This document shows positions 2,920 to 52,197 of a DNA stretch of 64,000 nucleotides, one piece after another (positions within the stretch are counted from its first letter, which is position 1; every line of letters starts with the position of its first letter). The stretch is taken from assembly GCA_013334245.1 (NCBI GenBank), contig JAAXXZ010000001.1:54675-118674 (forward strand), given 5' to 3'. A program made the translations under genes and the position numbers. The notes beneath the pieces are model-generated. The model saw only the letters and a program-made list of their open reading frames with translations, had not been told where the DNA came from and made no database searches. Origin of the DNA: Candidatus Moraniibacteriota bacterium (lineage in GTDB: Bacteria > Patescibacteriota > Minisyncoccia > Moranbacterales > UBA1568).

Positions 2920-3716
2920 TCCGAAATCCGCATTTGCCCTAGTGCTAAAATTAACAATTCAACAATATGACAACGAATAGATGTATCATAATTCATGGAT
3001 GCCCCTCTGATTCTGAAAAAGAGATGGATCCTGAAACAAGGACCTATGACAAGCACTGGATTCCGTGGTTAAAAAGAAATCTTATTGCAAAAAATATTGA
3101 AACGGAAACTCCCCTCATGCCATCGCCCTGGCAACCTGATTATGAAAAAATCAAAGCTGAGTTTGAAAAATATACTGTTGATGAAAACACAATCTTAGTG
3201 GGTCATAGTTGCGGTTGTGCCTTCTTGGTTCGATGGCTTGGTGAAACTAAGACCAAAATTTTTAAACTTTTTTTAGTCGCGCCTTGGAAAATTCCGCAAG
3301 AGAAAAGGAATGGTGCTGATGTAAATTTCTATACATATCAGATTGACCAGTCTATCAAGGACAGGATAAGTCAAATAGTTATGTTTACTGCGGACGATGA
3401 GGAGGAAGACGGAAAAAAAAGTTTAAAAATTTTTCATGATGTACTTGGTGGCGAGATTATCGAGCTAAAAGGGCGAGGGCATTACTGTTTGGACGATATG
3501 AAAACCGAGGAGCTTCCTGAGCTATTGGAAAAGATTTTGCAATAAGATTTCGAGGCATCCATTTCTTGCTAACAAGGACGGGCAAATGCGGACACCGCAC
3601 AACACTTCATATCCGGTTCAGGAATTTTTCACATTTATGATTCAAGGTAGGGAAAATTCCTTCTCCCAAATTTTTGTTCCGCTATCGCTGCACAAAAAAT
3701 TCGGATGATGCCGAAA
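2920..3716 (+). mobile_element. putative non-autonomous cassette inserted in a tRNA-derived repeat unit. AT-rich, carries the hydrolase gene, has internal inverted repeats TCCGCATTTGCCC (2927-2939) and GGGCAAATGCGGA (3580-3592), and is flanked by GTTG on both sides (2916-2919 and 3717-3720)
   Basis: The repeat unit ...ATCAGTTG|GTAGATCCGCC... is interrupted after GTTG at 2919 and resumes with GTTGGTAGATCCGCC at 3717. GC content drops to about 38% inside. Inverted 13-nt repeats lie near both ends. Confidence 0.4.
2967..3545 (+). CDS. alpha/beta serine hydrolase of the RBBP9/YdeN family (PF06821-like)
   Basis: 192 aa with N-terminal IIIHG, LVGHSCG nucleophile elbow (GxSxG), and C-terminal GHY motif. 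It is a paralogue of the CDS at 8266..8820. AT-rich codon usage. Confidence 0.75.
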   Translation: MTTNRCIIIHGCPSDSEKEMDPETRTYDKHWIPWLKRNLIAKNIETETPLMPSPWQPDYEKIKAEFEKYTVDENTILVGHSCGCAFLVRWLGETKTKIFKLFLVAPWKIPQEKRNGADVNFYTYQIDQSIKDRISQIVMFTADDEEEDGKKSLKIFHDVLGGEIIELKGRGHYCLDDMKTEELPELLEKILQ

Positions 3717-9374: not shown

Positions 9375-9408
9375 CAGTGAACAGTTAACATGGAACAGAT
9401 AACAGGGA
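9375..9408. repeat. dispersed intergenic repeat, motif A (revcomp TCCCTGTTATCTGTTCCATGTTAACTG)
   Basis: Shares CTGTTATCTGTTCCATGT exactly with 35196-35221. Related copies at 10631-10663, 26813-26864, 43089-43133, 48345-48367, 58945-58978. Confidence 0.55.
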
Positions 9409-26812: not shown

Positions 26813-26864
26813 CGTTCCCCGTTCCCGGTTCCATGTTCCCCGTTATCTGTTATTTGATTTCCGT
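26813..26864. repeat. dispersed repeat motif A copy (CGTTCCCCGTTCCCGGTTCCATGTTCCCCGTTATCTGTTATTTG)
   Basis: Sequence similarity to 35229-35282, 9375-9408 and 43089-43133. Confidence 0.5.
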
Positions 26865-30526: not shown

Positions 30527-30957
30527 CGCTCCCGAAACAGGCTCATAAGCCGGATTCTGTTTGAATCATCATTTATCTGGGACCGTCGTTACCGACGACC
30601 TCGAGCGGCACTTCCCGGCTTTCGCCGGGACACGGCCTTGCACACGGATAAGGGTTTAGCCGTTTCACCCCGCGCGTTTCCGCACGGACTCATCCCGCAC
30701 CTATTTCGCACCCCGCTTTCGCGAACCGGATTTTTTCCGTTCAGAAATATTCCGGCCCTCAGAAATGGATAGGATGTGGAATAGGTGCGGGATGTCCTGC
30801 CCTTTCGGGCTGGGACGTCTCTGCTCGCACCTCGCGCCTCGCGGCGGACGGGTATTACCCGCTACCTGGTCCTCGGCTTGCGCCGATTCATGTGTCCGGA
30901 CTTTCCTCTCAAACGCCGCAAGCGGCGACTGAGCGATGATCCGACCTGTTTCGGGAA
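30527..30957 (-). ncRNA. rnpB: RNase P RNA (bacterial type A)
   Basis: Minus-strand transcript contains the universally conserved P4 strands GAGAGGAAAGTCCGGACAC (5') and ACAGAATCCGGCTTATGAGCC (3'). P1 pairs CCCGAAACAGG with CCTGTTTCGGG. Internal CCAGGTAGCGGGTAATACCCG and GGGTGAAACGGC resemble the P11/P12 regions. Fills a 555 bp gap with no plausible CDS. Confidence 0.8.
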
Positions 30958-33415: not shown

Positions 33416-33465
33416 AAATGCGCGTCATTAGCTTCATTAGCTTCGTCAAGCTTCTTAAGCTTCCT
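33416..33465. repeat. AGCTT-rich direct repeats (CATTAGCTT x2, AAGCTTC x3) at the 3' end of the four-helix-bundle gene
   Basis: TCATTAGCTTCATTAGCTTCGTCAAGCTTCTTAAGCTTCC read from sequence. Partner block at 33833-33985. Confidence 0.5.
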
Positions 33466-33838
33466 CCGATTTCGGATTAAGTTTTCTGATCATACTTCTG
33501 AGCATTCGGCCGGTTTCCGATAGAAGACACTCCGACCTCTTGAAATCGAGCTTCTTCGTCTTCGGGAGCATCTTCGCGATTTCCACTTGTGTTTCCAATT
33601 CTCCGGTCGAACCGAGCGCTATCCTTAAGAACTGGATGAATTCTTTTTTCGTCCCCCGGTACCTCCCCTCCGCGATATTGGACGGAATGGATACTGCGGC
33701 CCGACGCATCTGCGATACCAACCCGTACACCTCCTCTTTCGGAAACTCTTCCGTCACATCATATGTCTCAGTGACCAATTCCATAGCTCTCTGCCAGACG
33801 ATCAACTCCTTGTAACTGTGTAACATATCAAGCCTCAT
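33455..33838 (-). CDS. four-helix-bundle protein (23S rRNA intervening-sequence protein family, TIGR02436-like)
   Basis: 127 aa; LIVWQRAMELV...VSQMRRAAVSIPSNIAEG...FLRIALGSTGELETQ is the family signature. Inserted between pheS and pheT. Confidence 0.8.
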   Translation of the reverse strand: MRLDMLHSYKELIVWQRAMELVTETYDVTEEFPKEEVYGLVSQMRRAAVSIPSNIAEGRYRGTKKEFIQFLRIALGSTGELETQVEIAKMLPKTKKLDFKRSECLLSETGRMLRSMIRKLNPKSEEA

Positions 33839-33985: not shown

Positions 33986-35017
33986 TTGCCTTATAAATCG
34001 GAGGTCGCCGCTCATGAACATGCGAGTATCTGGAATACGGTTCTTCATCATCGAAAGTCGTTCCAGACCGAACCCCCACGCGAATCCCTGATATTTTCCG
34101 CGCGGATAGCCGGCCGCCTCGAACACCTTCTGCTGCACCATCCCCGCCCCTCCGATCTCCAGCCATCCGATCCCCTTACATGCCGGACACCCCTTCCCGC
34201 CGCAGAACACGCACGAGATGTCGAATTCGAAACCCGGCTCGACAAACGGGAAATAACTCGGACGAAGCCGAACGGTGATCGAACGGCCGAAAAACTCGGA
34301 AAAGAACGTCTCCGCGACATGCTTGAGATGTCCCACGGTCACGCTTCCGGTCTCGCCGACGACCAGGCTCTCGAACTGATGGAACGTATGTTCGTGCACG
34401 GCATCCGTCGACTCGCACCGGAACGTACGCCCCGGAACGATGATACGGAACGGCGGTGTATGCGTTTCCATATACCTGACCTGCACCGGGGACGTGTGCG
34501 TACGAAGCACGTAGCGGGTATCCAACCCGTCGCTGTCCACCCAGAAGGTGTCCTGCATATCACGCGCCGGATGATCGGCGGGAAAGTTCAACGCCTCGAA
34601 ATTATAGAAATCACTTTCGACATCCGGACCGTCGGCGATCCCGAATCCCATTCCCGTGAATATGTCCTCGATCTCGTGGATCAACGTGGTGATCGGATGC
34701 AGATGACCCATCGGGGTCGGAACGCCGGGTGCCGTCACGTCGATCCGCTCGGCCTCCCAATCGCGGCCTTCGTGTGCGATGCGCTCAGCCGCCGCCGAGA
34801 ACGCCTCCGAAAGTGCCGCACGGACACCCTGTACGAGCGGACCGACCGTCCGCTTCTCTTCAGCATCGAGATCTTTGAGTCCCTTCAGGATTCCCGTAAG
34901 CTCGCTCTTTCTCCCCAAAAACCGAACCTCGAGCTCGCGAAGCGATTCTTCGGAGTCCGCTTCCGCGAACGCTTTCTTCCCTTCCTCCTCGATAGCCCTG
35001 ATTCGTTCGGTATCCAT
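33980..35017 (-). CDS. pheS: phenylalanine--tRNA ligase alpha subunit
   Basis: Class II motifs (FPFVEPGFEFDISC, GWLEIGGAGMV, FAWGFGLERLSM). 345 aa. Confidence 0.9.
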   Translation of the reverse strand: MDTERIRAIEEEGKKAFAEADSEESLRELEVRFLGRKSELTGILKGLKDLDAEEKRTVGPLVQGVRAALSEAFSAAAERIAHEGRDWEAERIDVTAPGVPTPMGHLHPITTLIHEIEDIFTGMGFGIADGPDVESDFYNFEALNFPADHPARDMQDTFWVDSDGLDTRYVLRTHTSPVQVRYMETHTPPFRIIVPGRTFRCESTDAVHEHTFHQFESLVVGETGSVTVGHLKHVAETFFSEFFGRSITVRLRPSYFPFVEPGFEFDISCVFCGGKGCPACKGIGWLEIGGAGMVQQKVFEAAGYPRGKYQGFAWGFGLERLSMMKNRIPDTRMFMSGDLRFIRQF

Positions 35018-35195
35018 AAGAAAAGCGCATTAAAACGCTTTTATGGTATCACCGAACCGCCCGCGGGTCAAAAAGGCCAGTGAACCATAATCGGTTTGCA
35101 AAGAGCACATAACATATGACGGGGAATCCCGGACTCGCTTCCCGACTACAGGCTGACGCGTTCACATTCTTGTATCCCAACTTCTTATCCGTATT

Positions 35196-35282
35196 CCCTG
35201 CCACCTGTTATCTGTTCCATGTAACAACCCCTGTTCCCGCTCCCTTCTACCTGCCACCTGTTATCTGTTATTTGTTGTCTGT
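35196..35282. repeat. dispersed repeat motif A, two direct copies of CTGCCACCTGTTATCTGTT (35196-35221 and 35229-35282) upstream of pheS
   Basis: Exact 19-nt direct repeat. Related to motif A copies elsewhere. Confidence 0.55.
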
Positions 35283-35403
35283 CTTTGTGTTATACTGTTT
35301 TCGAAGACCTCCAGAACGGGGCGTTGAATACAATGAAACCCACCTGGCCTTTCAGGGAAAAGCATTTTTTTCCGACAATCGCTTATCATGGGATTCATAC
35401 GCG

Positions 35404-35566
35404 CCCCCGCATTGGGGGTTTTTCGTTTTCAAAAACTGCCCCCTCCGATTCCGACGCACACAGGAGGCGACTCATCCGGCCTCCGCAACGGGGTTTTTCG
35501 TATAAAAAAATTCGTCGGAAAAATCAGCACCATTCAGGCTCCATACTGCCCCCACAACGAGGTTTT
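35404..35566 (+). terminator. three tandem terminator-like hairpins, each GC-stem/5-nt-loop followed by TTTTTCG (35404-35425, 35479-35497, 35548-35566)
   Basis: CCCCCGCATTGGGGGTTTTTCG, CCTCCGCAACGGGGTTTTTCG and CCCCCACAACGAGGTTTTTCG. No plus-strand CDS lies upstream, so they may end an unannotated small RNA or act as regulatory hairpins. Confidence 0.4.
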
Positions 35567-35710
35567 TCGTTTTTTGGAAAAACTGCAGCTTTAAACGACA
35601 AGGATGGAGCTGCTTTTGTTTAATCGTCCACATATCCACTTGCTATCCTTTGGGAAAAATGGTATGAAGGACTGTTCATTTTGAACACCAACTTAACAAT
35701 AAGGCAGAAC

Positions 35711-36745
35711 ATGGATACTCAAGCAGATCCCTTAACGAAGGCACCTTCGGGTGCCTGGCCGATATCGGCCCTGGAGTCCGGCCCGAGCGGGCGGACTGTC
35801 TTGCATTACGTTTCACAAAACGGAATGGGCCAGTTCATCGATATGGTGTCTGGCGCGCCGCTTTTCGACTTCTCCGAGCGTTATAGCCGGATGAAATACG
35901 GAAGCGTCCCCGACATCGAATGGATGGGGGCGAAGATCGCCAGGTCATTTATCGGACGCCTGAACGACCCCGCGGACAACCTAATTCGACTGTTTCAGAA
36001 CGCCGAGTGCGCCGGAGAATTCGTGACGGTCATCTCCCCCGCTTCCCGTAACGTCGAGTCGGCACAGAAGCGCATGGTCGAGATAGCCGTCAGGCACATC
36101 GATATCTGGCTCGCCCTCCACGGCCTCCCGACGATGATACTCGCCAAATTATCGCGCTTCCGGTCGGGAACGACCGACTACGCAAGAATGTCCTATAGTG
36201 AACGGATAAAGGACAATACGGATCCCGGGGTCAACAGGCAGTATCTTCCGGAACCGGATTTCTTCGCAGCCGGCACGCACGTCTTTTTTTTCGACGACAT
36301 CCATGTCACCGGCGCTTCGGCGGAGCAGATAGGGAGAATCGCCATGGCGCGGGGAGCGAAATCGTTCTCGACGGTCTTCTGCGTCGCGCTCGATCCCAAG
36401 ATCGTCGCCGAAAATCCGGGCGTCGAGGACCGTCTCAACCGCTCTTTCATTCACGGATGTCTTGACGAACATGTCGCCGCTATCTTGAACCAGGACGGCT
36501 TCATGCCGGTTCAAAAAATGCTCCGCTTGCTACTCGACGGAAAAAATCGAACCACGCTCGCGGCGTTCCTGCGGAGCAGCATCCACGACGACGCCCTGCT
36601 GAAACTCTATGCATCCTGCCTCGGAAACGACTACCTCCGGGATTCACGCTTCACCGATTCGGTGTTCATACTCATGAACACTCTCAAAGAATCGGGTCTC
36701 ATCGGCACGGATGGCCTACCGCACCTTGATCGCATGAAAACCTGA
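35711..36745 (+). CDS. phosphoribosyltransferase (PRTase type I) domain protein, ComF-like core with a C-terminal extension of about 140 aa
   Basis: PRPP-binding loop THVFFFDDIHVTGAS (hydrophobic4-DD-x-x-TG-x-S/T). N-terminal region (ERYSRMKYGS...WMGAKIARSF) loosely ComF-like. Start at ATG M11; the track start is TTG at 35681. Confidence 0.5.
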   Translation: MDTQADPLTKAPSGAWPISALESGPSGRTVLHYVSQNGMGQFIDMVSGAPLFDFSERYSRMKYGSVPDIEWMGAKIARSFIGRLNDPADNLIRLFQNAECAGEFVTVISPASRNVESAQKRMVEIAVRHIDIWLALHGLPTMILAKLSRFRSGTTDYARMSYSERIKDNTDPGVNRQYLPEPDFFAAGTHVFFFDDIHVTGASAEQIGRIAMARGAKSFSTVFCVALDPKIVAENPGVEDRLNRSFIHGCLDEHVAAILNQDGFMPVQKMLRLLLDGKNRTTLAAFLRSSIHDDALLKLYASCLGNDYLRDSRFTDSVFILMNTLKESGLIGTDGLPHLDRMKT

Positions 36746-36894
36746 AACCGGTACCCCCATCGACAACGTTGCTCACGCGACAAAACAAGAAACGCCATCC
36801 GTGCAATGCGGATGGTCGTTTTTTTGCCACATCTGGCGCGTCAATATGATCAGCCACTGTAACGGCAGCAAAACATATTCAACCGGCCGCACCG

Positions 36895-37965
36895 TTATCG
36901 ACTATTCACGTCCGTTCTGTTCCCCAACGCAAGATCCTGGTGCGCCAAGATCGACCCCGGGATGAGTGGGATCCATAAAGTAAGGCCGCGAAGCAGGAGC
37001 GTTCCGGTAAGCGCCCCTTCGAACGGGACGCCGAGTCCGACGAGCGTCGATACCGCACCCACTTCGAAGACCCCTACACCGCCGGGAATGAACAGGACGG
37101 TGCCGGCGACCATCGCTATCACATACGCGGAAAACGTTATCGGCAAAGAGGTATGTATGCCCACGGCACGCAGCGTCATCCAAAGCGTAGCCCCGTCGAG
37201 GACGAATATGGCCAGTTGGAAAAATGACGCCTTGAAGAAAATGTCCCACGCAAGAATCCGTTCCGAGGAAACCGCGGAGACGGCCCGTATCAGCCGATCC
37301 ACCATTTTACGACGTGTGATCCATGCCGGTATGTTCTTGATCCAGTCCCGATTCAACAGGAAGGCGATCGTTCCGCCGAATACCACGATGGAGATGGCGG
37401 CGAACGCGCCGAGACTCAGCAACACGATCGGCGTGACCTCGTGATGGAACGAAAGGACGGCGAAAGCGGCAAGCGCGGCGGACGCGTACGCGGCATAGTG
37501 CGACAAGAGATCCACGAAGAGCGCTTCCATGGCGACCGGCGTCGGCACCCCGAAGTGCCGCAATGCCTGCAACGTACCGACGTGCCCGGCAACTCCGGCA
37601 CTCGGCATGAACTGATCGATGGTCAGACGTTCGATGGCAAGGCGCGCCAGTATTCGGGAACGGAGCGGGTGCTTGGCCGCTCGCACCGCGACATTCCACA
37701 CCTCGCCCGCCGACACGTACGTCAGCATCTGAAGCACGACCGCGGCGACCAGCCACCAGGGCTCGGCCTGGCGCGCGGTCCGGAGAAACTTCTCGAAATC
37801 ACCGAAACGCGCGAACACCGCTACCGACAATCCCAGTATCAGAATAAAACTGACCACGACCGTGCGTATCGGAAACGCACGAAACGATTGAACGGTCCCG
37901 TTGACGGTGCCACCCTTCTTTTCTTCACTCATAGGCAAGGAATACCATGCCTCATATCGTATCAT
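36895..37965 (-). CDS. flippase-like / lysylphosphatidylglycerol-synthase-TM-region family membrane protein (UPF0104)
   Basis: Eight or more TM helices over about 350 aa, characteristic of PF03706 family proteins. 37932 (M12) is an alternative start. Confidence 0.5.
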   Translation of the reverse strand: MIRYEAWYSLPMSEEKKGGTVNGTVQSFRAFPIRTVVVSFILILGLSVAVFARFGDFEKFLRTARQAEPWWLVAAVVLQMLTYVSAGEVWNVAVRAAKHPLRSRILARLAIERLTIDQFMPSAGVAGHVGTLQALRHFGVPTPVAMEALFVDLLSHYAAYASAALAAFAVLSFHHEVTPIVLLSLGAFAAISIVVFGGTIAFLLNRDWIKNIPAWITRRKMVDRLIRAVSAVSSERILAWDIFFKASFFQLAIFVLDGATLWMTLRAVGIHTSLPITFSAYVIAMVAGTVLFIPGGVGVFEVGAVSTLVGLGVPFEGALTGTLLLRGLTLWIPLIPGSILAHQDLALGNRTDVNSR

Positions 37966-43088: not shown

Positions 43089-43133
43089 GTTCCAGTCCCG
43101 TTCCCCTGTTATCTGCTCAATGTTCCGCCGTTC
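43089..43133. repeat. dispersed repeat motif A copy (GTTCCCCTGTTATCTGCTCAATGTTCCGCC)
   Basis: Similarity to 10631-10663 and 35196-35282. Confidence 0.5.
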
Positions 43134-51785: not shown

Positions 51786-51804
51786 ATTTTTTCGTTTATC
51801 CCCG

Positions 51805-52197
51805 TTACCTGTTTATTCCGAAATACACGGCCCATTTCCGGTAATTCGGCGACTCGACACCGACCCGGGAACCATTCACATCGACAGCTTCCGACCCGGA
51901 CGATTCGGCTCCAAGCACCGATCCGGTATCCAGCACGACCACCTCCTCGTCGCGCTTCTTCATGCCAAGTTTTTCCTTCGCTTCACGCTCCTCGAAAGGT
52001 TCCGTCGAAAAGAAAGCGATTTTTTCCTCGATAGTCCGGTTTTCGCCCCGGATGCGGTCCGCCTCCCGACGCAGGGAATCCACCTCCGCTTCGATGCGTT
52101 TGGAGCGTTCCATCTCTTTCCATCCGGAAGAGAGCACGGCTCCGGTCCCCACTATCAATACCGCAAGCATCAATTTCGCAAACAAAGGAATCTTCAT
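51805..52197 (-). CDS. cell division protein FtsB/DivIC-like (septum formation initiator)
   Basis: N-terminal TM plus coiled coil (IEAEVDSLRREADRIRGENRTIEEKIA). 130 aa. Confidence 0.6.
   Translation of the reverse strand: MKIPLFAKLMLAVLIVGTGAVLSSGWKEMERSKRIEAEVDSLRREADRIRGENRTIEEKIAFFSTEPFEEREAKEKLGMKKRDEEVVVLDTGSVLGAESSGSEAVDVNGSRVGVESPNYRKWAVYFGINR

What the first reader, a model, noticed from the sequence alone, without database searches (positions are those of the whole stretch)
35018..36745. Orphan PRTase-like protein behind a 660 bp noncoding region with three tandem terminator-like hairpins and direct repeats
Region 35018-35710 has no credible CDS. It contains two exact copies of CTGCCACCTGTTATCTGTT. 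It also holds three consecutive G/C-stem hairpins, each followed by TTTTTCG, all in the plus orientation although no plus-strand gene lies upstream. A further hairpin AAAAGCGCATTAAAACGCTTTT abuts the pheS start codon. It is followed by a 345 aa protein whose core is a type I PRTase / ComF-like fold (PRPP loop VFFFDDIHVTGAS) with an unexplained C-terminal extension of about 140 aa. PRTase-like proteins act as effectors in some retron and other defence systems, but no reverse transcriptase is present here. The noncoding region could instead encode a plus-strand small RNA ended by the hairpins, or be a regulatory leader.
Basis: inference. Interest (0 to 1): 0.5.

Follow-up and report, generated by a model that had tools for sequence, protein, structure and literature searches.

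The report
Unrecognised small RNA gene beside solo PRTase
The "empty" 690-bp spacer holds a conserved, folded small RNA gene of Moranbacteria that matches no catalogued RNA family, and the enzyme gene behind it is an unrelated accessory gene that only two genomes carry.

Summary
The sequence features are real, but they belong to two independent units.

**1. A small RNA gene, window 35303-35428 (+).**
- It has its own extended -10 promoter, TGTTATACT.
- It is found in 13 other distinct loci, all that carry an organism name being Moranbacteria, usually divergent from pheS.
- Its sequence is better conserved than pheS (81-99% against 70-90% nucleotide identity).
- It folds into a closed rod tipped by two hairpins. 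13 of 37 base pairs show compensatory changes, against 4.0±1.4 in shuffles (0 of 500 reach 13).
- It has no Rfam 15 match and no conserved reading frame.
Only the first is a stable hairpin.

**2. A 344-aa PRTase_3 (PF15610) protein, window 35711-36745 (+).**
- The "unexplained C-terminal extension" is part of the family domain.
- The gene occurs in only two of the sRNA loci, and in one of them an opposite-strand purC gene separates it from the RNA.
- No reverse transcriptase, Ter gene, ComF signature or PADLOC match was found.

The 19-nt direct repeat belongs to a genome-wide intergenic motif.

The retron/defence reading and the leader reading are not supported. The small-RNA reading is supported. 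The RNA's function is unknown.

The parts
35023..35044 (-). Hairpin in the short pheS 5' leader, just upstream of the pheS ATG at 35017
   Evidence: Sequence. It lies downstream of the pheS promoter. It is conserved only in window, L013 and L014; other relatives have different sequence there.
35043..35071 (-). pheS promoter, TTGACC-17-TACCAT with TG upstream
   Evidence: It is the only site in 34900-36950 that passes the promoter scan. A TTGACC/TTGAC-type -35 and a TAC(C/T/G)AT-type -10 are present at the same distance upstream of pheS in most relatives.
35188..35276 (+). Pyrimidine-rich direct repeats: two 29-nt copies containing the exact 19-mer, plus an overlapping third degenerate copy
   Evidence: The motif is genome-wide and intergenic: 10 hits against 0.67 expected. 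It also lies upstream of the sRNA promoter in L001, L013 and L014. It is not conserved in more distant relatives (the upstream flank is ~50% identical).
35288..35296 (+). Extended -10 promoter of the small RNA (TGT-TATACT)
   Evidence: TG(N)TATACT or TATAAT is present in nearly all sRNA loci at the same 6-7 nt distance from the first G of the RNA (in L018 the TG lies one base closer). Sequence further upstream is unalignable. It falls below the threshold of the -35/-10 scan because the -35 is poor.
35303..35428 (+). Structured small RNA gene of ~126 nt. Helices, counting RNA position 1 as 35303: P1 1-12/110-122, P2 16-22/99-105, P3/P4 31-39/88-96, P5 41-45/50-54, P6 55-59/66-70. The internal loop UUGAAUACA / UA is largely conserved.
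   Evidence: nhmmer E 1e-42 to 2e-29 in the relatives with the short form. Covariation: 97.6% of cells paired, 13 pairs with compensatory change against 4.0±1.4 in shuffles, 0-3 in slid controls. MFE -44.4 kcal/mol, z -3.15 on +, against z -1.64 on -. No Rfam match.
35398..35429 (+). It is also the 3' strand of closing helix P1.
   Evidence: Terminator scan. Hairpin -11.6 kcal/mol. The 3' arm pairs with the RNA's 5' end in the MFE and consensus folds.
35473..35501 (+).
   Evidence: Repeat family D1. Weak hairpin, -6.2 kcal/mol, z 0.0. The same module CATCCGGCCTCCGCAACGGGGTTTTT is conserved downstream of the sRNA in L001, L005, L007 and L013, with close variants in L014 and L015.
35542..35570 (+).
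   Evidence: 83% identical to the unit at 35473. The stem is disrupted in the window. It is intact in L001 (CCCCCGCAACGGGG).
35585..35621 (+). Fourth hairpin plus UUUUGUUU. It lies just upstream of the window-specific junction that precedes the PRTase cassette.
   Evidence: -13.6 kcal/mol, z -3.9. Part of it (35585-35638) falls within 35574-35638, which has no counterpart in L001.
35640..35668 (+). Promoter-like site of the PRTase cassette (TTGCTA-17-TGgTATGAA)
   Evidence: Read from the sequence. It is conserved in L001 (TTGCCA ... TGGTATGAA), inside the block shared with L001 that starts at 35639. It falls below the scan threshold, so this part is an inference.
35711..36745 (+). PRTase_3 (PF15610) gene, 344 aa. 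Type I PRTase core with PRPP loop at aa 191-203, plus family-specific N-terminal and C-terminal helical parts.
36794..36826 (+). Intrinsic terminator of the PRTase cassette
   Evidence: 10-bp stem plus T-run. -16.4 kcal/mol, z -4.2. Conserved in L001.

Best explanation
The interval holds two independent transcription units.

**(A) A small non-coding RNA gene.**
- Shown: it is a stand-alone gene at 35303-35428 (+) found in Moranbacteria. It starts 6-7 nt after a conserved extended -10 box.
- Shown: the RNA folds into a closed rod. Its 5' end pairs with the G-run and U-run at its 3' end (P1). P1 is followed by P2, a largely conserved asymmetric internal loop (UUGAAUACA / UA) and P3/P4. The tip carries a variable hairpin (P5), an A/U hairpin (P6) and a ~16-nt single strand.
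- Inferred: the P1 3' strand plus U-run, or the competing local hairpin, ends transcription.
- Shown: Inferred: they act at most as weak back-up terminators. Their number changes between genomes by duplication and recombination.
- Inferred, with low confidence: the RNA is an abundant trans-acting RNA that works through its invariant loop and junction nucleotides, by binding a protein or other partner. It is not an antisense RNA or a cis-regulator.

**(B) A self-contained accessory cassette, 35639-36826.**
- It consists of a promoter-like site, a 344-aa PRTase_3 enzyme and a terminator.
- Shown: it sits in a variable slot between the sRNA and the LPG-synthase-like gene, and relatives carry other genes there.
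- Inferred: the enzyme keeps an intact PRPP loop and probably transfers phosphoribose from PRPP to a base-like acceptor. It may act as a solo salvage-type enzyme or be a remnant of a Ter-type nucleotide-metabolite module.

The RNA and the PRTase are neighbours by accident of insertion, not partners.
For: **RNA**
- The 20-mer TGAATACAATGAAACCCACC hits only loci that carry this sRNA; every one with an organism name is a Moranbacteria/Moraniibacteriota MAG, the rest being unnamed metagenome contigs with the same pheS neighbourhood.
- nhmmer finds the RNA upstream of pheS in 7 of the 8 further loci fetched through pheS homologues, at E 1e-42 to 1e-29.
- The window and L001 are 100% identical from the -10 box to the terminator, while the PRTase cassette is 88% identical.
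- RNA identity exceeds pheS identity in all 8 comparisons, and the upstream flank is ~50% identical beyond the closest relative.
- Covariation: 13 of 37 pairs have both-sided changes, 0 of 500 shuffles reach that, and slid controls give 0-3. RNAalifold recovers P1, P2, P3/P4 and P6.
- The AT-rich L011 homologue folds the same way, z -4.9.
- G-U pairs and the z-scores favour the + strand.
- ORFs are not conserved.
- No Rfam hit, even on the 136-nt stretch alone.

**Independence of the two units**
- The PRTase is present only in the window and L001.
- In L001 purC lies between the RNA and the PRTase on the opposite strand.
- The slot carries purC, a 400-aa membrane protein, vWA-TerF-like/MoxR/VWA genes, HAD and Znu ABC-transporter genes, or GNAT and a P-type ATPase in other relatives.

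**Terminator copies**
-. L015 has three exact tandem copies that include their 'spacers'.

**PRTase**
-.
Against: - No expression data exist. The promoter and terminator are inferred from sequence, and the promoter fails the generic -35/-10 scan.
- The covariation comes from only 10 distinct sequences of one clade. P5 has one covarying pair and P6 has none.
- A calibrated covariance model could not be built, so the RNA's wider distribution is unknown.
- The RNA's function is not established by any result here.
- Only 64 kb of the genome was seen, so Ter partners or an RT could lie elsewhere.
- Distant homologues of the PRTase sit in conflict-system contexts: Ter clusters and a plasmid defence island. 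A defence-related role therefore cannot be excluded.
Confidence: 0.75

Rival explanations
1. The variable slot is an integration hot spot. Mobile elements target the 3' end of the sRNA gene, as they do with tRNA and tmRNA genes. The partial copies of the RNA's 3' end are att-site scars, and the PRTase cassette is cargo. This is compatible with the main explanation for the RNA. It differs on the origin of the hairpin copies and of the PRTase.
For: - Each extra module copies the last ~30 nt of the sRNA.
- Gene content downstream differs in almost every lineage.
- IS630-type transposase fragments flank L001 and L014.
- The PRTase cassette has sharp borders at 35639 and 36824.
Against: - No integrase was seen in the gene tables or ORFs examined at these loci.
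- The copies lie only 46-75 nt apart, with nothing island-sized between them.
- L015 has three exact 47-nt tandem units, which is the signature of slippage or unequal crossing-over rather than integration.
- No copy of the module follows the PRTase gene. Its terminator at 36794-36816 is unrelated.
Confidence: 0.15
2. The RNA is a cis-acting leader or riboswitch. It would control the downstream PRTase, or whatever gene follows, through a terminator/antiterminator choice between the local 3' hairpin and the long-range P1 helix.
For: - Two mutually exclusive foldings of the 3' end exist: hairpin 35403-35419, or pairing with the 5' end.
- In the window the PRTase is co-directional and 280 nt downstream.
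- In L011 valS follows in the same orientation.
Against: - Among the loci where the neighbouring gene could be identified, it runs in the opposite direction to the sRNA in all but the window and L011.
- Both alternative folds end in the same U-run, so both would terminate.
- L011 has no local terminator hairpin, only P1.
- Further terminator-like hairpins and a separate promoter-like site lie between the RNA and the PRTase.
- No riboswitch family matches.
Confidence: 0.04
3. The locus is a retron-like or other ncRNA-plus-PRTase defence system. The structured RNA would partner the PRTase effector, as in type III-A retrons.
For: - PRTase-like effectors exist in type III-A3 retrons (PMC12746101, PMC7736814).
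- The RNA has paired 5' and 3' ends, like the a1/a2 repeats of retron ncRNA.
- Remote PRTase_3 relatives lie in Ter clusters and in a plasmid defence island.
Against: - No RT was found among the immediate neighbours scanned with Pfam.
- PADLOC gave 0 hits at E<=1.
- The RNA is conserved in 12 distinct loci that lack the PRTase, and it is more conserved than pheS, which is housekeeping-like behaviour.
- The PRTase and RNA are separable in L001.
Confidence: 0.03
4. The RNA is the lineage's divergent version of a universal housekeeping RNA that Rfam models miss, for example a 6S-like RNA polymerase-binding RNA.
For: - It has a rod-like shape with a closing stem and a conserved internal loop.
- It is very highly conserved.
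- It has a strong constitutive-looking promoter.
- It lies in a block with pheST and RNase P RNA.
Against: - About 125 nt is short for a 6S RNA.
- The internal loop is highly asymmetric (9 nt against 2 nt), not a central bubble.
- The apex is a three-way junction.
- There is no GNRA-capped SRP helix-8 motif.
- cmscan gave nothing for 6S, SRP, tmRNA or 5S even at E<=10 on the isolated RNA.
Confidence: 0.1
5. The repeats form a CRISPR/TIGR-like array, or the region encodes a small repeat-containing protein. The spacings of 75 and 69 nt are multiples of three, and a 112-aa ORF runs through the repeats.
For: - The repeat spacings are divisible by 3.
- ORF 35285-35623 reads RPRIGGFSF, RPPQRGFSY and LPPQRGFSF in one frame.
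Against: - The frame is shifted in L001 (one A fewer) and in L007 (1-nt indel), and stopped after MKPT in L011.
- The repeats are only 62-83% identical.
- No cas or tas gene was found among the immediate neighbours scanned with Pfam.
- In L015 the 'spacers' are identical to each other.
Confidence: 0.02

Closest known systems
Pfam PF15610 PRTase_3 (ComF-like PRTases of Ter-type stress/conflict gene clusters)
   Same: - It scores above the gathering threshold over almost the whole profile.
- The acidic PRPP loop and family-invariant residues are intact.
- It has a type I PRTase core.
- Length and domain extent match single-domain members.
   Different: - Relatives at 33-37% identity occur as tandem pairs next to TerD, TerY/VWA, PP2C and kinase genes.
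- Many cluster representatives are 2- or 3-domain fusions.
- Here the gene is solo, among housekeeping genes of a CPR bacterium. None of the Ter-system proteins or second PRTase_3 sequences used as tblastn queries matched the 64 kb.
ComF / GntX competence proteins
   Different: - NCBIfam GntX equivalog scores 10.8 bits against a cut-off of 304.
- There is no CxxC zinc-finger N-terminus: only 4 scattered Cys.
- No competence gene is among the neighbours scanned.
- It has an extra C-terminal helical bundle, aa 253-327.
Type III-A retrons with PRTase-like effectors (e.g. Retron-Eco11; PMC12746101, PMC7736814)
   Same: A PRTase-fold protein lies next to a structured ncRNA whose ends pair.
   Different: - No RT was found.
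- No PADLOC retron or effector match.
- The ncRNA is conserved without the PRTase, and the two are separable.
Stand-alone bacterial structured sRNA genes with intrinsic terminators, and tandem terminators after strongly expressed RNA genes (own knowledge: e.g. rrn T1/T2)
   Same: - It has its own promoter and a closing helix plus U-run.
- Conservation is confined to the transcript.
- There is covariation.
- Extra terminator-like modules lie downstream.
   Different: - It matches none of the 4227 Rfam 15 families.
- The back-up modules are partial copies of the RNA's own 3' end, and their number varies from 0 to 3 between close relatives.
- One lineage carries a 200-235-nt expansion in hairpin P5.

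Membership tests
Pfam PF15610 PRTase_3 | Score above Pfam gathering threshold across the profile | tested here: met
   41.0 bits against 28.7, E 2e-10, profile positions 16-260 of 264, aa 52-317. All close homologues carry PF15610.
Pfam PF15610 PRTase_3 | Type I PRTase fold with acidic PRPP-binding loop | tested here: met
Pfam PF15610 PRTase_3 | Typical context: Ter-type cluster and/or tandem or fused second PRTase_3 | tested here: not met
   The TerD, TerY, vWA-TerF-like and second PRTase_3 queries gave no tblastn hit in the window. Neighbours are pheS and an LPG-synthase-like gene. The rest of the genome was not seen.
Pfam PF15610 PRTase_3 | Phosphoribosyl transfer from PRPP to a base-like acceptor | not testable with these tools
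   Needs an enzyme assay.
ComF/GntX competence protein | Equivalog-level sequence match | tested here: not met
   NF008616 scores 10.8 bits against a cut-off of 304.
ComF/GntX competence protein | N-terminal Cys4 zinc finger and competence-gene synteny (own knowledge of the family) | tested here: not met
   No CxxC pairs in the sequence. No comFA or other competence gene among the nine window neighbours scanned.
Retron (tripartite RT + ncRNA + effector) | Adjacent reverse transcriptase | tested here: not met
   No RT domain in the nine window neighbour proteins scanned, nor in the called genes of L001.
Retron (tripartite RT + ncRNA + effector) | Effector or RT recognised by defence-system HMMs | tested here: not met
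   PADLOC gave 0 families at E<=1.
Retron (tripartite RT + ncRNA + effector) | ncRNA co-inherited with the effector | tested here: not met
   The RNA is present in 12 distinct loci that lack the PRTase.
Any Rfam 15 family (6S, SRP, tmRNA, 5S, T-box, riboswitches, etc.) | Covariance-model match | tested here: not met
   No relevant hit at E<=10 on 2 kb, on the isolated 136 nt, or on the L008 and L011 versions. RNase P is detected normally nearby.
Conserved structured non-coding RNA | Base pairs maintained by compensatory substitutions above controls | tested here: met
   97.6% of cells paired. 13 pairs have both-sided change against 4.0±1.4 in shuffles (0 of 500 reach it). Slid controls give 0-3. 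P6 is invariant, so it is uninformative.
Conserved structured non-coding RNA | Not protein-coding | tested here: met
   Frames shift or stop between homologues.
Conserved structured non-coding RNA | Discrete transcript in vivo | not testable with these tools
   No transcriptome data were available.
Intrinsic (Rho-independent) terminator | Stable G/C stem followed by a U-run | tested here: inconclusive
   Unit 1 is met (-11.6 kcal/mol, passes the scan). Unit 2 is weak (-6.2, z 0.0). In unit 3 the stem does not form. A fourth hairpin at 35585-35613 is strong (-13.6, z -3.9).

The most novel reading that the evidence does not exclude
The ~125-nt RNA is a previously undescribed class of structured RNA specific to Moranbacteria (Patescibacteria/CPR). 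It is conserved more strongly than an essential aminoacyl-tRNA synthetase gene and tolerates a 200-235-nt expansion segment in one hairpin. It would act as a core cellular ribonucleoprotein or regulatory RNA in these reduced-genome symbionts. That would add a new member to the very short list of lineage-wide housekeeping-type RNAs.
Probability: 0.35. Interest if true: 0.65.

Novelty: new member of a known kind. Interest (0 to 1): 0.45.

Why it matters
CPR/Patescibacteria have tiny genomes, and no lineage-specific structured RNA from them turned up in the literature searches made here. An RNA with covariation support that is conserved above the level of pheS and absent from Rfam is a concrete candidate for experimental and comparative follow-up. 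It also gives a model to add to annotation pipelines, which currently call spurious ORFs across it (for example the 76-aa 'gene' in L001 and the 156-aa one in L014).

The result also removes a tempting but wrong link between a PRTase-fold protein and a neighbouring ncRNA. It shows that a Ter-type PRTase_3 can occur as a solo cassette in a symbiont genome. That bears on how such organisms acquire nucleotide-metabolism genes.

Tried and rejected
- **Related loci by protein:** The search for related loci with the PRTase in genome contigs found nothing.
- **Viral and phage searches:** the sRNA 20-mer in viral contigs and blastn of the region against phages gave no match.
- **Structure:** the first AF2 run with 4 sequences was unusable, pLDDT 48.6. 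It was repeated with 16 sequences. The afdb50 fold library was unavailable.
- **Sequence search of PDB:** only noise.
- **Literature:** searches for a described Moranbacteria/CPR sRNA or 6S RNA found nothing relevant.
- **T-box or attenuator for pheS, rejected:** the RNA is on the opposite strand, G-U pairs and z-scores favour the + strand, and there is no T-box hit.
- **CRISPR/TIGR-like array, rejected:** the repeats are degenerate, no cas or tas gene is present, and the L015 'spacers' are identical.
- **Small repeat protein, rejected:** the frames are broken in relatives.
- **SRP, 6S or 5S identity, rejected:** no motif and no covariance-model match.
- **sRNA-aaRS functional link, considered:** pheS lies divergent and valS lies downstream in L011. 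This is judged to reflect local gene order. tyrS is also nearby, and L017 has pheS without the RNA.
Full report
**What is in the sequence**

- pheS (PF01409) runs on the minus strand and starts at 35017.
- The next credible gene is a plus-strand ORF at 35711-36745, encoding 344 aa.
  - two exact copies of CTGCCACCTGTTATCTGTT, at 35198-35216 and 35251-35269;
  - three related ~29-nt units ending in TTTTTCGT, at 35398, 35473 and 35542;
  - a hairpin next to the pheS start.
- ORFs of up to 129 aa cross the spacer, but none is conserved (see below).

**The protein**

- Pfam places it in PF15610 (PRTase_3, 'PRTase ComF-like') at 41 bits against a cut-off of 28.7. The match covers profile positions 16-260 of 264, which is aa 52-317.
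- An exhaustive phmmer search of 1.84 billion cluster representatives finds only 181 relatives at E<=1e-3. Full-length matches span aa 27-337. Many relatives are two- or three-domain fusions of about 630 and 940 aa.
- The 'unexplained C-terminal extension' is therefore part of the family domain.
- With a 16-sequence alignment AlphaFold gives a usable model (pLDDT 80.8, pTM 0.78).
  - Only 130-150 residues align. The helical bundle at aa 253-327 and the N-terminal part are family-specific.
- The PRPP loop residues H190, D195, D196 and G201 are invariant in 16 homologues, and T200 is nearly so.
- It is not ComF/GntX (NCBIfam 10.8 bits against 304).
- It matches no PADLOC model.
- The NCBI record starts the protein at M39 (P0001, 306 aa). 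That is probably too short, because homologues align from residue 27.

**Context of the protein family**

- The 33-37% identical relatives P0003 and P0004 lie as tandem PRTase_3 pairs beside TerD, TerY/VWA, PP2C and kinase genes. This fits the published view of Ter systems, in which PRTases and HAD phosphoesterases make a nucleoside or nucleotide derivative (PMC7824862).
- The best plasmid matches (35.5% identity over 90%) sit beside radical-SAM and PHP-phosphatase genes inside a defence island with JukA, PDC-M40B, WYL, AbpA and DUF262.
- In the window nothing of this kind is present. The neighbours are pheST, an LPG-synthase-like membrane protein, an EamA-family transporter, an inositol-monophosphatase-family protein and tyrS.
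- tblastn with TerD, TerY, vWA-TerF-like and second-PRTase_3 queries finds nothing in the 64 kb.

**The key comparison**

- The only close homologue (P0002, 83% aa identity) is on contig L001.
- The PRTase cassette, window 35639-36824, aligns there at 88% nucleotide identity.
- A separate block, from the -10 box at 35291 to 35427, is 100% identical over about 137 nt.
- In L001 this block is separated from the PRTase by a purC gene on the opposite strand.
- The conserved non-coding block is therefore its own entity.

**Distribution of the non-coding block**

- A 20-mer from its centre retrieves eight further loci. The four from the genome collection are all Moranbacteria/Moraniibacteriota MAGs, and the four metagenome contigs carry the same sRNA-pheS neighbourhood.
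- Contigs fetched through pheS homologues add seven more (nhmmer). After removing duplicate records, this makes 14 distinct loci including the window.
- In the clade whose pheS is >=70% identical to the window's, the element always lies divergent from pheS. This holds for every locus in which pheS was found (L001 has none).
- L017 (pheS 68% identical) lacks it at this position.
- In the AT-rich L011 it lies upstream of valS.
- tblastn shows the PRTase only in the window and L001.
- The slot between the element and the LPG-synthase-like gene holds different genes in different relatives:
  - purC in L001 and L005;
  - a 400-aa membrane protein in L007 and L008;
  - vWA-TerF-like, MoxR and VWA genes in L015;
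  - HAD and Znu ABC-transporter genes in L016 and L019;
  - GNAT and a P-type ATPase in L021.

**Evidence that it is a structured RNA gene on the plus strand**

1. *Promoter.* Nearly every copy is preceded at a fixed 6-7 nt by TG-N-TATACT (TATAAT in L011); in L018 the TG sits one base closer. Sequence further upstream is unalignable.
2. *Conservation.* Nucleotide identity to the window RNA exceeds that of the essential pheS gene in all eight comparisons: 99/90, 99/82, 91/78, 87/76, 84/76, 81/75, 82/76 and 85/70 %. The upstream flank is at ~50% beyond the closest relative.
3. *Fold.*
   - The window RNA folds at -44.4 kcal/mol (z -3.15).
   - The AT-rich L011 version adopts the same architecture at -40.6 kcal/mol (z -4.9).
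   - The minus strand folds at z -1.6.
4. *Covariation.*
   - On ten distinct sequences, 97.6% of pair cells are canonical.
   - 13 of 37 pairs show changes on both sides, against 4.0±1.4 in shuffles (0 of 500 reach 13) and 0-3 when partners are slid by 1-3 columns.
   - Examples are AUGAA/UUCAU changing to AUGGA/UCCAU and AUGGG/CCCAU in P3, and GAAGA.../...UUUUUC changing to GAAAG.../...CUUUUC in P1. In L011 the CCUCC/GGGGG segment of P1 is replaced by UCUUC/GAGGA.
   - P6 is invariant, so it says nothing either way.
5. *Strand.* Conserved G-U pairs such as U8-G114 would be C-A mismatches on the other strand.
6. *Not coding.* The ORFs through it are frame-shifted in L001 and L007 and stopped after four codons in L011.
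7. *Expansion.* In L005, L006, L008 and L010 hairpin P5 carries a 200-235-nt insertion. The insertion folds as its own branched arm while P1, P2 and P6 are kept (z -5.5).

cmscan against Rfam 15 gives no meaningful hit at E<=10. This holds on 2 kb, on the isolated 136 nt, and on the L008 and L011 versions. The same tool finds RNase P RNA at 30530-30952 and in eight of the related loci searched. Literature searches found no description of the RNA.

**The 'three terminators'**

- Unit 1 is the RNA's own 3' end. Its G-run and U-run are also the 3' strand of closing helix P1.
- Units 2 and 3 are partial copies of the last ~30 nt of the RNA, (U)CCAUMCGGCCUCCGCAACGGGGUUUUUC.
- Their number varies:
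  - none in L008, L011, L016, L018, L019 and L021;
  - one in L005, L007 and L014;
  - two in the window, L001 and L013;
  - three exact 47-nt tandem copies, including their 'spacers', in L015.
- This pattern points to duplication and unequal recombination.
- In the window only unit 1 is a stable hairpin (-11.6 kcal/mol). Unit 2 is no better than shuffles, and unit 3 has lost its stem.
- A fourth hairpin at 35585-35613 followed by UUUUGUUU is strong (-13.6 kcal/mol, z -3.9).
- I read the copies as weak, decaying back-up terminators. This is an inference.
- The alternative is that they are att-type scars at an integration hot spot. The variable slot and nearby IS630 fragments fit that idea. The absence of any integrase, the short spacing, and the absence of a copy distal to the PRTase argue against it.

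**The direct repeat and the pheS hairpin**

- The 13-nt core CCTGTTATCTGTT occurs 10 times in the window against 0.67 expected, and most of the other strong matches lie at gene boundaries.
- Similar pyrimidine-rich copies precede the sRNA promoter in L001, L013 and L014, but not in more distant relatives. It is a genome-wide intergenic motif, not part of this locus's machinery.
- The hairpin at 35023-35044 lies between the conserved pheS promoter (TTGACC-17-TACCAT, 35071-35043) and the ATG. It is conserved only in the nearest relatives.

**Interpretation**

- Two independent units lie side by side: a Moranbacteria-specific structured sRNA gene, and a solo PRTase_3 cassette that landed in the variable slot downstream of it.
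- The retron/defence reading and the leader reading fail on synteny and on the absence of partner genes.
- The small-RNA reading is supported.
- The RNA's function is not shown by anything here. My best guess, at low confidence, is a trans-acting RNA that binds a protein or other partner. This rests on its conservation, the largely conserved asymmetric loop UUGAAUACA/UA, the conserved junction nucleotides, and its tolerance of a large insertion at the P5 tip.
- The PRTase keeps its catalytic loop and probably uses PRPP. Whether it serves salvage in a nucleotide-dependent symbiont, or is a stray piece of a Ter-type module, cannot be decided from 64 kb.

**Limits**

- There are no expression data.
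- The covariation rests on ten sequences from one clade.
- No calibrated covariance model could be built.
- Only part of the genome was seen.

Noticed in passing
window 30530-30952 (-); L007, L008, L010, L012, L013, L014, L015, L020: RNase P RNA lies just downstream of pheT, so the block sRNA / pheS-pheT / rnpB is syntenic across these Moranbacteria. In L008 and L010 the RNase P match spans 535 nt against 331-417 nt elsewhere. That is the same lineage whose sRNA carries the large P5 expansion.
   Followed up: partly
window 33455-33838 (-): A 127-aa PF05635 '23S rRNA-intervening-sequence protein' (with a weak bAvd-like match) is wedged between pheS and pheT. Among the loci compared, only the window and its closest relative L013 have it there (tblastn).
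   Followed up: partly
window 9380-9406 (-), 26839-26851, 43105-43117, 51801-51813, 35204-35276: A pyrimidine-rich motif (GTTCCC)CTGTTATCTGTT recurs at gene boundaries: 10 hits against 0.67 expected. It is also present upstream of the sRNA promoter in L001, L013 and L014. Its role is unknown.
   Followed up: partly
L005 2900-3210, L006, L008 5819-6162, L010: A 200-235-nt expansion segment is inserted in hairpin P5 of the sRNA. It folds as its own branched arm (z -5.5). L005 lacks a 36-nt sub-hairpin of it. It has no Rfam match.
   Followed up: partly
L015 42-3211: A relative carries vWA-TerF-like, bpMoxR AAA and VWA_CoxE genes in the same variable slot downstream of the sRNA. This is a second Ter-related cargo at the position where the window has the Ter-type PRTase.
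   Followed up: no
L015 ~3440-3588 (minus strand of the locus): Three exact tandem 47-nt copies of [spacer + terminator-like module] follow the sRNA.
   Followed up: partly
L022 (Citrobacter freundii plasmid NZ_CP056645.1, 114860-133777): The closest plasmid homologue of the PRTase (35.5% identity; no Pfam hit of its own) lies with radical-SAM, PHP-phosphatase and glycosyltransferase-like genes. These sit inside a defence island with JukA, PDC-M40B, WYL, AbpA plus a DEAD-box helicase, and DUF262. This may be an uncharacterised nucleotide-modifying conflict operon.
   Followed up: partly
L001 2-247 and 3219-3500; L014 18-1105: IS630-type transposase fragments (DDE_3/HTH in L014) flank the sRNA/PRTase region in L001 and L014. 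This is consistent with local rearrangement.
   Followed up: no
window 35711-35825: The public annotation (P0001, 306 aa) starts the PRTase at M39. Homologues align from residue 27, and L001 conserves the longer N-terminus, so the start at 35711 is more likely.
   Followed up: partly
L001 569-799 (-), L014 1614-2084 (-): Gene callers placed hypothetical ORFs of 76 aa and 156 aa across the sRNA. These are probably spurious calls caused by the unannotated RNA gene.
   Followed up: partly
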